Of a stretch of DNA of 64,000 nt, positions 5,484 to 63,793 are shown in pieces. Made by a program: the position numbers and the translations under genes. The first letter of the stretch is position 1. Every line of letters begins with the position of its first letter. The notes under the pieces were generated by a model, which saw only the letters and a program-made list of their open reading frames with translations, was not told the DNA's origin and did not search any database. Source of the stretch: Octopus vulgaris (Eukaryota); assembly GCA_951406725.2 (NCBI GenBank), contig OX597820.1:91078001-91142000 (forward strand). Reading direction: 5' to 3'.

Positions 5484-5499
5484 AATAACTATTTTCATA

Positions 5500-5940
5500 T
5501 GTCTGTGCACACCTTGAATGCAATGTATACCAGAAGGTTTGCAAATCTAATGGAGGCCTCAAAAGACATTTTAAGATCCACGCAGACCTCTAGCAGTTTA
5601 ACCTGTTTGTCGGCCCAGTATCCCACGATGCAGATACTATTGGATGGCATGGGCCTACCTCTCCAGGTGCCGAGCCACAAGCCAAATGACTTTTCCAAGT
5701 TAATTTTTGTTCCTGCTACTGCTTTGTAATCTTTTAGTGTCTCGCCAACCAAGTCAATATACCTGTGGCTCAATACTATGATGGTGACATCGTCCACATA
5801 TGCAAACACACCCCTCCTGCATCTCAGTTCCTGCAGGATGCCACACAGTGTTGCCAGCTTCTGCAGTAGTGGCTCTAGAGTCAATGCGTACAAAAGTGAC
5901 GAGAGGGTGCATCCTTGATGGACCGAACACGTGATGATAA
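5500..5940 (-). pseudogene. L1/Tx1-clade LINE reverse transcriptase fragment
   Basis: ORF 5495-5953 has SVHQGCTLSSLLYALTLEPL (QG.PLSP.LF motif), AYVDD, and GTKINLEKS.GLWLG. Confidence 0.85.
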
Positions 5941-7788
5941 ATGAGACAGACATACAGACAGACAGAGAGATAGCTGTTTTTATGTCTGTATTGATGCTAT
6001 GTTTTAATGATAGACTATATTTCCTGCTACAAAGTGTTCTTCATGATAATATTGATGATGTATATATTTTGTATCAATCATTACTTTAAGTAAATGTTTT
6101 GTGATAAAGTGAATTCTTATAATTTTGTGCTATTGTTATTAATATACAAAATCCTGATATATTTTAAATAAACAATACAAGAATGTTTCAAAAAGAATCA
6201 CAAGATTTGCACATTTTTTTTTTCTCCCGGAATAAGTGAAGGAGACTAAACTTATGCTGTACAGTGTGGAAACATGAGAATTATTACAGTTTGAAATTAA
6301 ATATCAAAATTTTTAAAAATCAATTTAAAAGAGACACTGATGTGTTTTCTCAGATACACAGCTCAAAATACACATAAAACTTTTGATAAATAGTCATTTA
6401 TATATATATATATATATATAAAATTTCTCACTTCCTTCATTTTTCTTTTCTTACCTCTCTCTTGCTCATATGATTTCTATTTCAAATGCGTGCATATTTG
6501 TGGAGATATATTCAAAATTGCATTCATACTTACACATTCGGAACTTTGACCTTCTTCTGCCTTGATAAGCATAACTCGAATATTATCACTTGAGCAATAT
6601 ATCTACATAAATCAAAGCTGCTAAATAATTCCCTTGTCTTTTGAGATTCTTTACATATTTTTATATTGATATTTTTAAAATTCTCACACCAAAATATTAC
6701 AAACTGGAAACATACATCCATATATACATCCAAATATTTCTATATGCACTTTTCTGCGCAAGAAAGCAAGTGTATACATACATAGCTTCATTGAAATGTA
6801 AAAAGAGTAAAAAAAAAAAAAACAGATTTGAATATCATAAATCTATATTTATGTAAACATACATACACCAAACTATGAATCATTCACTTTCCTTTTATAT
6901 ACATTTGTATTTCTACATTTAAAAGATATGTACTCAAAATTTAAAGTATATTAAAAGATAAATCCAAAAATAAAAATGTATAAAATTACAAACACATTTA
7001 TTTTAAGCCATAATACAATTTTAAATAATTTAATTCCAGTCTTGGGAAAAATACATCTGTCAGAAATTTAAGCTCTAATAAAACACAAGTAATATTTTAC
7101 ACTGCCATAAATTCAGGATTACCATTTCTTAACTATCAACACAATATTTTATATCTTTTCAGCTCATAAATTCTTCAACCTATTTCTCTTGTCATTGCTT
7201 TAAAACAGTGTTATTCATCATGTTCAAAATGTGGTCAAGATTTCCCTAAACTTAACCATTCCCATGGTATTAAGCACTTTCATGCCATACTCTGTGCTTC
7301 TGAGACTCATAATATTATTTATATTCCACCATTACAGTATAGAAAATGGTTGCCAGGAGCCCTTTCAACAATGTTTCACCTTTACTATTTAACTTCTCAG
7401 TATTGCTTGCACATAAAACACCTTTGTTAATGAATTTCAACATAGGCACAAGGGCTCAACTTTTGGTGAAGGGGTATACTCATTTAAGGTAAATCTCCAT
7501 CTCCTAAACTGGGTCCATATCATATAGATACTAAAAGTTTGAACGGCTTTACCAGCACTAGTACGGTTTGAAATCAGAGAGAAAAGAGCTGTAAGCAAAT
7601 ATTGTAGCATATTTTACTAGACACTACCATTTCTGTCACTATGTAATTTAATGTAAAATTTATTGCTGAAGTACACAATAATAACAACCTAGTTTGTTAA
7701 AATATGTTATGATATGCTTTACTCAAACTGATTCTACAATGTATGAAGTAAGTTGTTCAGAAATTATTATATTCTATGTAGTCAAATG

Positions 7789-8849: not shown

Positions 8850-9162
8850 TATTAGACAAAATGAGTCAACAAAGCCAAGGCTGTGAGTAGTTTTCAGGAC
8901 ATTTATAAAGAAAGAGATATAGAGATAGTCTTACAGCTGTTTCTAGGATATTATGGATATCCCTTCATCAGAGACAATGTGAGATGTTTAAATCGAGGTA
9001 AATATCTGAGTTCGAAATAAGGAATTATTATGGAAAAGGAGGAGATAGGGAATATAGAGGGAAATAAGAGAATGAAAGTGGGAATAAAATATAAAATATT
9101 TAAGGATATTGTAGTCACAGTTCCATTATTTAAGGAAAGTTGTGTATAGAAGTGGTAAAAAC

Positions 9163-14490: not shown

Positions 14491-14678
14491 AGGGATAATT
14501 TACGAAAAAAACAACAAAAGACAAAGACAGGTGGTGTACAAAACAAACAGATGTATTAGTATAAGGCTCAGGAATAGAAAAAGTCTTTTACGTTTCGAGC
14601 CTACGCTCTTCTACAGAAAGGGACACAGAAAAAAGGAGAGAAAAAAAATGTGTGTAGTGGCTAACGATCTATCATGGT
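14491..14678 (-). mobile_element. Penelope-like pLTR with variant hammerhead
   Basis: Homologous to 11946-12177; bounded by TA repeats; immediately upstream of the Penelope ORF but unlike that element's own 3' pLTR. Confidence 0.7.
14585..14620 (-). ncRNA. Minimal type I hammerhead ribozyme, CUGUAGA core variant
   Basis: CUUU-CUGUAGA-A-GAGC-GUAG-GCUC-GAAA-CG-UA-AAAG: stems I and II perfect, stem III reduced to the ACGU palindrome. Confidence 0.7.
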
Positions 14679-14691
14679 GTATATATATATA

Positions 14692-16052
14692 TATGCCTCT
14701 ATCTCTAAAGAACTGCTAGATAAAGCCCTAATCTTCGCTAGTGATTTCATAGAAATTAGTACCAATGATAAGGATATAATCTTCCATGCTAGAAAGACAT
14801 TACTTTTCAGTGAGAATGCAAAGTGGGTAAAAAACACCGACACGGAGGGCGCTTTCGATGTGAGCATGGGTTCATATGATGGGGCAGGCATCTGTGATCT
14901 AATTGGACTCTTTCTCCTAGATACCTTCAGTAAGACATTCCCTAACGTACATTTTGCCATCTACAAAGATGATGCCCTCGCCTTAACAGCTAATACAAAT
15001 GGACCAGCACAAGATCGTTTTAGGAAGGATATTATCCAGTTAATGAAACACTTCGGACTTAGTATAACTATAGACACTAACCTGACGGTTGTCAATTTCT
15101 TAGACGTTTCCTTAGATCTTAATAATAATATTTATAAGCCTTATAGGAAGCCCAATGATAGACTAAGTTATATTAATGTAGGTTCATGCCATCCCCCTAT
15201 AGTATTCAAAAATTTAGTTAAAAATATTAGTAAGAGGATTTCTAGCCTCTCATCTAATGAGGACATCTTCAATAGCATTGCTCCAGTTTATAATAAAGCT
15301 TTAAAAGATAGTGGTTTTAGCGAAAAAATAAAATATACACCTATCACCAGCCCAACAATAAGGAAAAGGAATAATAGAAATAGGAAGGTCATCTGGTTTA
15401 CACCCCTTACTCACCCGAGGTGGCCTTCAATATAGGTAAATATTTCCTAGCACTGATAGATAGACATTTTCCAGTTAACCATGCTTATAGGAAACTCTTC
15501 AATAGACACAATTTAAAAATTAGTTTTAGTTCAACTACCAATTTTAAAAACATAATCAATCATAACATACAAAAAACACAAGAAGAAAACAGCTGTTCAT
15601 GCAGGAATAAAGAATTGTGCCCGCTAAATGGAGCTTGCATGTCCAAGACCATCATATATGAAGCTACCGTAAACTCTATAACCACTAAAGACACCGTTTC
15701 GACGAAGAAATACGTGGGCCTGACAGAGGGTAATTTCAAGGCCAGGTTCAATAACCACACTTTGAGCTTTAGGCACTGGAACAAAAGAAAAGCGACACAA
15801 TTATCCAATCATATTTGGTCTTTAAGAGATAAAGGTGTCGATTATAACATACAATGGAAGATTTTGGCCAGATGTAAGCCCTATACTAACGGCAGCGGAA
15901 GGTGCGGTTTATGCGACATGGAGAGATGGCTTATCTGGAAAAGCAGCTTAGACCCTACCACATGTCTAAATACAAGGACAGAGCTTTTCGGATCATGCCC
16001 ACATGTGACTAAATTTCTGTTACGTTTTTGGTCCCCTAAAGAAAACGGATAG
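14692..16052 (+). pseudogene. Penelope-like retroelement (Naiad-type) RT + zinc finger + GIY-YIG ORF, 5'-truncated, one frameshift at ~15405
   Basis: RT motifs FDVSMGSYDGAGICDLIG, YKDD, VNFLDV..YKPYRKP; one extra C restores WFTPPYS..NIGK; linker CSCRNKELCPLNGAC (CxCx5Cx5C); IIYEATV...KYVGLTEG.FK.RF.NH endonuclease; C-terminal CGLC and LNTRTEL...CPH. Confidence 0.95.
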
Positions 16053-16331
16053 AACATGCTTTCTGTGTTATGTCCCAAGAAGATTTTATATATTTTTATA
16101 TATTTTTATATATTTTTATGTATTTTTATATAATTTTTATGACGAAAAATGCGAGCGATGTATAAGTACGCAGGCAAAGCAGAGTTATAACAGAGTAATT
16201 TCCCTTCATTTTTAACGGTATTTTTTCATAACGTTTTCAAATAGCCAGATAACCGAAGAGATGGTGTTGTGGATTTCCACTTCGGCATCTGAAACTCAGA
16301 GTTTTATCTTGACTACCGAGTAATGTAACAT

Positions 16332-16336
<5 letters not shown>
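16053..16336 (+). mobile_element. 3' UTR / pLTR of the Penelope element, ending in (TA)n
   Basis: Contiguous with the ORF; 16245-16335 homologous to 63690-63785. Confidence 0.8.
16242..16315 (+). ncRNA. Type I hammerhead ribozyme, CCGAAGA core variant
   Basis: AGAUAA-CCGAAGA-GAUG..GUGGA-UU-UCCAC..CAUC-U-GAAA-CUC-A-GAG-UU-UUAUCU; stem I AGAUAA/UUAUCU; sense strand, in the pLTR. Confidence 0.75.
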
Positions 16337-16373
<37 letters not shown>

Positions 16374-45159: not shown

Positions 45160-45265
45160 TTACTAGCTACGGCGGTACATATTCTGAAATTGGAATGATA
45201 CAAAAAAAGATTAGCATGCCCCTGCACAAGGATGACACGCAAATTCGTGAAGCATTCCATATTTT
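45160..45265 (+). pseudogene. U6: U6 snRNA retropseudogene (full length)
   Basis: Aligns end to end with U6: 5' hairpin, aaattggaatgatac, agattagcatg, aaggatgacacgcaaattcgtgaagc.ttccatatttt; ACAGAGA box mutated to ACAAAAA. Confidence 0.93.
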
Positions 45266-45267
45266 CT

Positions 45268-63441: not shown

Positions 63442-63477
<36 letters not shown>

Positions 63478-63793
63478 TGGTAAAAACGGTAAGATAACAA
63501 AAGAAAGAAAGAGACCTCAATATTATGTAAATAGAGGGAATTTATCTGTAAATAATATGTGGCAATTATTCAATAGCCAAGATAAAACTCGGATGCCGAG
63601 GTGGAAATCCACACCACCATCTCTTCGGTTATATGGCCATCAATCGCACTAGGTCACAAAAGATCAAGTGAATATTGTTATGATTGATGGCCAGATAACC
63701 GAAGAGATGGTGGTGTGGATTTCCACCTTGGCATCAGAAACTCAGAGTTTTATCTTGGCTATTGAATAATTATCACATATTATTTTACAGATA
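63478..63793. mobile_element. Foldback of the Naiad-type Penelope pLTR (arms 63543-63645 / 63682-63793)
   Basis: Homologous to 16245-16335; flanked by (TA)n on both sides. Confidence 0.85.
63690..63761 (+). ncRNA. Type I hammerhead ribozyme, CCGAAGA variant, second copy
   Basis: GCC-AGAUAA-CCGAAGA-GAUG...CAUC-A-GAAA-CUCAGAG-UU-UUAUCU-U-GGC. Confidence 0.72.

What the first reader, a model, noticed from the sequence alone, without database searches (positions are those of the whole stretch)
16242..16315. Hammerhead with conserved U4-to-C core change (CCGAAGA) in the pLTR of the coding element
Seen: the same CCGAAGA core occurs in three copies (16253+, 63699+, 63622-63628 minus). The fold has a 6-bp stem I extendable past a bulge, a long stem II (GAUG/CAUC with inner GUGGA/UCCAC), one extra nucleotide before GAAA (U, A or C among copies), quasi-palindromic stem III ACUC-A-GAGU and a GUU cleavage triplet. 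It sits in sense orientation exactly where PLE hammerheads are expected. Inference: a functional non-canonical hammerhead that CUGANGA-based searches would miss.
Basis: partly seen in the sequence, partly recalled or inferred. Interest (0 to 1): 0.75.

Follow-up and report, generated by a model that had tools for sequence, protein, structure and literature searches.

The report
Weakened hammerhead in young Penelope retrotransposon
This is the self-cutting-RNA (hammerhead) motif at the tail of a recently spreading jumping gene; its thousands of youngest copies carry a core letter change that older copies lack, a change already known from a viroid and likely to slow cutting, which has not been tested here.

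Summary
The motif is real: a type I, dimer-type hammerhead in the 3' pLTR of a Hydra-clade Penelope-like element. This copy is 5'-truncated and frameshifted; intact tandem copies exist elsewhere in the genome.

U4C is a subfamily character. There are 3,890 exact CCGAAGA copies, and 29 of 29 ORF-anchored young copies have C4. Four older subfamilies of the lineage read CUGA and show compensatory stem changes. U4C is also the majority state of an unrelated family in this genome (84 of 90) but absent from 42 Hydra-type hammerheads in metagenome contigs.

U4C itself is known (viroid; CYGANGA descriptors); I found no report of it in Penelope elements.

Catalysis is not shown. Genomic 5' junctions do not clearly pile up at the cut site, no raw RNA reads were available, and a 12,559-copy family with an A6U core shows that copy number does not prove cutting.

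Best reading: a slowed ribozyme whose uncut RNA is the copying template. The scan noted altered cores in this genome, and U4C in phages, before. The U4-to-C4 series makes the role of Penelope hammerheads directly testable.

The parts
16242..16315 (+). Type I hammerhead motif in the 3' pLTR (youngest subfamily)
16247..16252 (+). Stem I 5' strand (pairs with 16304-16309)
16253..16259 (+). Core C3-C4-G5-A6-A7-G8-A9; U4C at 16254
16260..16289 (+). Stem II: 4-bp base GAUG/CAUC, internal loops, inner GUGG/CCAC hairpin (16269-16280)
16290..16290 (+). Extra pyrimidine between stem II and G12 (C in older subfamilies, U in young ones; U can pair with A9)
16291..16303 (+). G12-A13-A14, palindromic stem III ACUC-A-GAGU (1-nt loop, dimer type) and GUU triplet; predicted cut after 16303
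   Evidence: same stem III and triplet as Penelope-3_HM
14692..16346 (+). 5'-truncated Hydra-clade Penelope-like element between (TA)n tracts; 98.7% identical to an intact unit
14692..16052 (+). RT, thumb and GIY-YIG remnant, split into two frames by a 1-nt deletion near 15402
63688..63761 (+). Second copy, earlier C4 subfamily, sporadic A at the extra position
63472..63640 (-). Inverted partner copy with GAAA/stem III deletion (not a complete hammerhead)

Best explanation
This is the hammerhead motif of a young Hydra-clade Penelope-like retrotransposon, in which U4C became fixed at the base of the three youngest subfamilies, and it is likely a slowed, dimer-dependent ribozyme rather than a fast or a dead one. 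Shown: the anatomy; the succession from four U4 subfamilies to three C4 subfamilies; intact 99.96%-identical tandem units with C4; element 3' ends about 43 and 110 nt downstream of the predicted cut site; most copies read through the cut site. Inferred: two hammerheads of a tandem transcript would pair through the palindromic stem III, probably helped by the element's protein, and cut after GUU at a low rate. Because reverse transcription would start downstream of the cut site, only uncut (or re-ligated circular) RNA can template long copies, so a slow cutter would cost little and may help. U4C and the later C-to-U change at the extra position would both lower the rate.
For: Whole lineage: 2 of 35 core and proximal-stem positions changed (one compensatory pair) against 25 of 38 others (partly by construction, since the search patterns fixed some of these positions). 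Double-sided changes in stem I and the inner hairpin. After U4C: 0 of 35 against 4 of 38 (p 0.07). A C4 sub-lineage that changed the free position N7 has spread (124 copies, 91 of 100 listed A-to-U, tandem units, 11 of 12 inspected identical over 100 nt), whereas A6 (11) and G8 (45) variants are fewer and of mixed letters. U4C is the majority in an unrelated family with different stems I and II (84 of 90), and frequent in two more (41 of 100 listed; 6 of 8). Three-stem U4C hammerheads occur in 3 of 121 phage loci against 0 of 120 for U4G. Literature: U4C lowers in vitro activity but permits viroid infectivity (PMC3088659); PLE hammerheads are slow dimers (PMC4209133); uncut RNA is the dominant template and the ribozyme is protein-assisted (PMC11167929).
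Against: No cleavage evidence. 5' junctions: 13 of 60 at the cut site (0/+1) but also 13 at the TA-microhomology site +10/+11. A family with an A6U core has 12,559 matches (97 of 100 listed are A6U), and N7 varies there too, so neither copy number nor N7 variation proves catalysis. The young fold is weaker than the U4 ancestor's (-14.6 against -21.8 kcal/mol for the competent fold); U16290 pairs with A9 in the MFE, and the free dimer MFE over-pairs GAAA. Post-U4C constraint is not significant on its own. A selective advantage of slowing is not shown.
Confidence: 0.55

Rival explanations
1. The C4 hammerhead is catalytically dead; the fold is kept as a binding or template element for the reverse transcriptase, or simply has not had time to decay.
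For: HHR mutants do not impair insertion in vitro, and no reads ended at the cut site in the lizard element (PMC11167929). A6U family with 12,559 matches. No clear junction pile-up. Two non-canonical features (U4C and the extra pyrimidine) plus a weakened outer stem. Naiads spread without canonical hammerheads (PMC8557442).
Against: No G5, A6, G8, A9 or G12-A14 change became a subfamily character in the copies sampled; the substitution fixed repeatedly at position 4 is the one reported as tolerated.
Confidence: 0.3
2. The ribozyme cuts as well as its U4 ancestor because tertiary contacts, the restored sixth stem I pair or the element's protein compensate; U4C is neutral.
For: The A-U pair closing stem I was restored in the same step as U4C; 6-bp stem I plus 4-bp stem II geometry; protein assistance shown for another PLE.
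Against: U4C 'considerably decreases activity in vitro'; 42 of 42 Hydra-type hammerheads from metagenome contigs and 26 of 26 Hydra rows in Craig et al. File S2 keep U4, which argues that U4 is usually favoured.
Confidence: 0.13
3. CCGA is a sporadic mutation, an assembly error, or the ancestral state from which CUGA copies arose by CpG decay.
For: C4 creates a CpG, and some CUGA copies are decay products (101 with young markers, about equal to 114 CCAA).
Against: 898 CUGA against 37 CCGA with the older marker; ladder-like tree with position 4 masked; outgroup Hydra-1_Obim has ctgaagag; the matching contigs of public runs show no other letter at 16254.
Confidence: 0.02

Closest known systems
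Hydra-clade PLE hammerheads, e.g. Hydra-1_Obim, Penelope-3_HM (Craig et al. 2021, PMC8557442; passages, section 11, supplement part 2 and passages seen)
   Same: Type I; near the 3' end; small palindromic stem III (ACUC-A-GAGU and cleavage U as in Penelope-3_HM); (TA)n targets; RWK, DKT and CxCX5C protein motifs; Hydra-1_Obim protein is a close relative read side by side (no identity computed), and its core reads ctgaagag-atg.
   Different: All 26 listed Hydra rows have CUGA. Here U4C is fixed, and there is an extra pyrimidine before G12 and a long interrupted stem II.
U4C hammerhead of peach latent mosaic viroid (Ambros and Flores 1998: paper not held, only its reference entry seen; the U4C result is from Perreault et al. 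2011, PMC3088659, passages and section 8; that this variant is the PLMVd one is recalled)
   Same: Same core substitution, described as reduced in vitro yet sufficient in vivo.
   Different: A rare viroid sequence variant (monomeric, with tertiary contacts: recalled), against a subfamily consensus in thousands of genomic copies of a dimer-type retrotransposon ribozyme.
Minimal and variant PLE hammerheads (Cervera and de la Pena 2014, PMC4209133; parts 1-2 of 4 read, one of two supplements searched)
   Same: Dimer-type design, long stem II, predicted low activity; natural core variants known (U3-A8).
   Different: No U4C in what I saw; their extra nucleotide lies between A9 and 10.1, here it lies on the 3' side.
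Anolis Poseidon element PAc (Frangieh et al. 2024, PMC11167929; passages)
   Same: Two 3' ends (tail), hammerhead upstream of the RT start sites.
   Different: Canonical C3/G8 core tested, other clade; cleavage shown to be protein-assisted and dispensable in vitro.

Membership tests
Hammerhead ribozyme, type I | Three helices around the core in type I order | tested here: met
   91.7% of cells paired, 7 pairs with double changes on 37 distinct copies; slid controls 33-49%. Related sequences, so not a probability.
Hammerhead ribozyme, type I | Consensus core C3 U4 G5 A6 N7 G8 A9 / G12 A13 A14 A15.1 / U16.1 H17 | tested here: not met
   U4 is C; all other positions match. Met in the older subfamilies. 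U4C is an accepted natural exception.
Hammerhead ribozyme, type I | Stem II closes directly on A9 and G12 | tested here: not met
   One extra pyrimidine in all seven subfamilies; the alternative register is G10.1-Y11.1 with a bulged C.
Hammerhead ribozyme, type I | Rfam hammerhead model match | tested here: not met
   No match at E<=10 for the C4 copy or for a U4 copy.
Hammerhead ribozyme, type I | Site-specific self-cleavage after H17 | not testable with these tools
   Only contigs were offered; genomic junction proxy inconclusive.
Hydra clade of Penelope-like elements | Single ORF, RT with C-terminal GIY-YIG-type endonuclease, unit under 3 kb | tested here: met
   708-aa ORF, 2,579-bp unit; Pfam gave no family, so the domains rest on motifs and on likeness to the published Hydra proteins.
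Hydra clade of Penelope-like elements | RWK, DKT and CxCX5C motifs | tested here: met
   RMRWK 35, DKT 114, CSCRNKELC 557.
Hydra clade of Penelope-like elements | (TA)n insertion, tandem and inverted arrangement, tail | tested here: met
Hydra clade of Penelope-like elements | Placement in an RT phylogeny with reference PLE clades | not tested
   Reference proteins were seen only in a paper supplement.
Non-LTR retrozyme | Short non-coding tandem unit with a hammerhead | tested here: not met
   The tandem unit is the 2.58-kb coding element.

The most novel reading that the evidence does not exclude
Penelope-like elements in this genome are selected for deliberately slow hammerheads: unrelated families fixed U4C (at least twice) or A6U in their most successful lineages while keeping C3-G8 and G12, because uncut or circular RNA is the template for long tandem insertions. 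The hammerhead would be a tuned brake on copying rather than a processing enzyme.
Probability: 0.2. Interest if true: 0.65.

Novelty: new variant of a known kind. Interest (0 to 1): 0.38.

Why it matters
Why Penelope-like elements keep hammerheads is open. This lineage gives a natural series from canonical U4 ancestors to C4 descendants that differ at about ten positions, with an intact young ORF for protein-assisted assays, so the cost or benefit of cleavage can be measured. It also shows that strict CUGANGA descriptors miss the dominant young families in such genomes.

Tried and rejected
A DNA similarity search of G000 returned nothing although thousands of copies exist (common words are skipped). 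Rfam on the whole window showed only U6 and microsatellite noise among the 150 of 363 rows listed. Pfam: 0 families. No RNA holder was listed as such; only contigs were available, one of which spans the cut site, which says nothing on cleavage. A>G/T>C differences in contigs could be editing or older subfamily alleles; not resolved. An alternative helix between the core and the 3' arm of stem II has a probability of about 0.02, so it was rejected as a designed switch. Cut-site footprint: 100 of 298 candidates classified, 40 dropped as same-strand indels or point changes, 60 kept; no peak beyond TA microhomology; the older U4 subfamily showed no pile-up either when its list was read by eye, so the test has no positive control. 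Host-specific U4C bias was not claimed: 0 of 42 elsewhere is compatible with a rate of a few percent. One large family has CCGA in only 3 of 100 listed copies (mutational noise). Ambros and Flores 1998 and Lunse et al. 2017 were not held; bioRxiv supplements are closed and one Cervera supplement was not searchable, so U4C in PLEs may be described there. Literature searches behind 'not found for PLEs'.

Full report
Observation. The window holds the described motif. Stem I is AGAUAA/UUAUCU, the core CCGAAGA starts at 16253, the base of stem II is GAUG/CAUC, one extra U precedes GAAA, stem III is ACUC-A-GAGU and the triplet GUU ends at 16303. A second complete copy lies at 63688-63761. Its inverted partner lacks GAAA and half of stem III. 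The 74-mer is not unusually stable (z -1.39). Rfam does not recognise it, nor a U4 relative.

The element. The motif follows an RT and endonuclease remnant. The copy starts at 14692, is 98.7% identical to an intact unit and has a 1-nt deletion near 15402. The main contigs of four public runs carry the missing base, as do 36 of 36 occurrences in loci not selected for it. Elsewhere in G000 a tandem array has a 2,579-bp period, a 708-aa ORF and units 99.96% identical. The motifs RMRWK, DKT and CSCRNKELC are those given for the Hydra clade (PMC8557442 section 11). The published Hydra-1_Obim protein is visibly close (compared by eye). A protein search gave 1,005 relatives, the listed ones at 41-52% identity. 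Copies sit in (TA)n and end about 43 or 110 nt after the predicted cut site.

History of position 4. Exact counts in G000: 3,890 for the C4 18-mer, 593 for U4 and 114 for the CpG-decay form CCAA. With the young stem II marker U4 occurs 101 times, about the decay level. With the older marker U4 outnumbers C4 by 898 to 37. Samples not selected on the core gave C4 in 29 of 29 ORF-anchored copies and 22 of 22 ungapped 3'-anchored copies; 8 of 30 truncated or gapped ones were set aside. Relaxing the pattern recovered older subfamilies (1,218 matches). Sorting 210 ungapped copies gave seven groups plus 10 unassigned copies: four groups with U4 and three with C4; the two youngest diverge 2.4-2.6% from their majority and the others 4.7-8.1%. 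A tree of 64 copies with position 4 masked is a ladder from U4 groups to C4 groups (the root on the most divergent group is my assumption, backed by U4 in Hydra-1_Obim). U4C is therefore derived and fixed.

Structure under constraint. On 37 distinct copies 91.7% of cells pair and 7 pairs change on both sides, including stem I pairs and the inner hairpin GCAG/CUGC to GUGG/CCAC. Along the lineage 2 of 35 core and proximal positions changed against 25 of 38 others; my patterns fixed some of these positions, so this overstates the case. After U4C the figures are 0 of 35 and 4 of 38, p 0.07. Within the C4 era a sub-lineage with N7 changed has spread (124 matches, 91 of 100 listed A-to-U, near-identical copies), whereas A6 and G8 variants number 11 and 45 with mixed letters. 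The extra pyrimidine is old: C in five groups, U in the two youngest, where it can pair with A9.

Recurrence. CCGAUGA followed by CGAAAC has 1,894 matches against 672 for the reversed control; the A6G equivalent has 1,162 against 675. One unrelated family with other stems I and II but the same stem III has C4 in 84 of 90 copies. Two others have 41 of 100 listed and 6 of 8; a fourth only 3 of 100. In 78 metagenome loci with Hydra-type ORFs, 55 had a hammerhead by a descriptor allowing one core mismatch; all 42 distinct ones read CUGANGA.

Results against function. If cut RNA were copied, 5' junctions should pile up at the cut. Of 3,637 young 3' ends, 298 deviate at the edge of a 17-nt window. 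I classified the 100 listed, dropped 40 as indels or point changes, and found 13 of 60 junctions at the cut site (nominal p 0.02) but 13 also at a downstream TA microhomology. This is inconclusive, and most copies read through the site. A different family has A6U in 97 of 100 listed copies among 12,559 matches, so expansion does not need a canonical core. The competent fold of the young copy is 7 kcal/mol weaker than that of a U4 copy, and the free dimer over-pairs GAAA. No raw reads were available.

Mechanism. The 1-nt loop of stem III cannot close in a monomer (established knowledge), and the 9-mer self-pairs (-7.4 kcal/mol), so activity would need a dimer, as for other PLE hammerheads (PMC4209133; PMC6765202 section 11). 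U4C is described as lowering activity in vitro while allowing viroid infectivity (PMC3088659). In the one PLE tested in the papers I saw, cleavage needs protein, is dispensable for insertion, and uncut RNA is the main template (PMC11167929). Here the 3' ends lie downstream of the cut site, so a cut would separate the priming region from the ORF unless the RNA is tandem or circular. I therefore favour a slowed ribozyme (0.55) over a dead one (0.30) or a fully compensated one (0.13).

Novelty. U4C is known, and CYGANGA is already used as a descriptor (PMC13481778, passages). I found no report of it in PLEs (26 of 26 Hydra rows in PMC8557442 File S2 are CUGA), but two key papers were not held. 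The bioRxiv paper 10.64898/2026.07.22.740005 (part 1 of 5), PMC3907566, PMC3884650 and PMC6155905 (passages) added nothing on this point. Earlier notes of this scan mention altered cores in this genome and U4C in phages. Verdict: a new variant of a known kind, interest 0.38.

Noticed in passing
window 14590-14616, minus strand: Minimal hammerhead-like end with an A6U core (CUGUAGA), directly 5' of the element; its family has 12,559 matches, 97 of 100 listed with A6U, as CUGUUGA or CUGUAGA.
   Followed up: partly
window about 8925-8977, minus strand: Canonical CUGAUGA hammerhead of another family.
   Followed up: no
window 45160-45266 +: U6 snRNA copy, 80.6 bits, with substitutions and indels; gene or pseudogene not checked.
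   Followed up: no
L426-L441: Unrelated PLE-type family with a majority CCGAUGA core, a GCAA tetraloop, the same stem III, two 3' ends and (TA)n targets; no ORF match within 1.5 kb.
   Followed up: partly
window near 15402; L344-L373: The same single-C deletion in a C-run recurs in dozens of young copies (31 among the loci ranked for it): a sub-lineage copied in trans, slippage or assembly error.
   Followed up: partly
L175/L176: Perfect head-to-head palindrome centred exactly on the predicted cut site; three such pairs appear among the 100 listed.
   Followed up: partly
G000:C1:57208855-57222577 (L061, L062): Two-armed array of seven near-identical hammerhead-bearing element ends, with open ORFs.
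   Followed up: partly
window 5495-6040, minus strand: Fragment that reads like a LINE-type RT (YVDD motif; label recalled, not tested).
   Followed up: no
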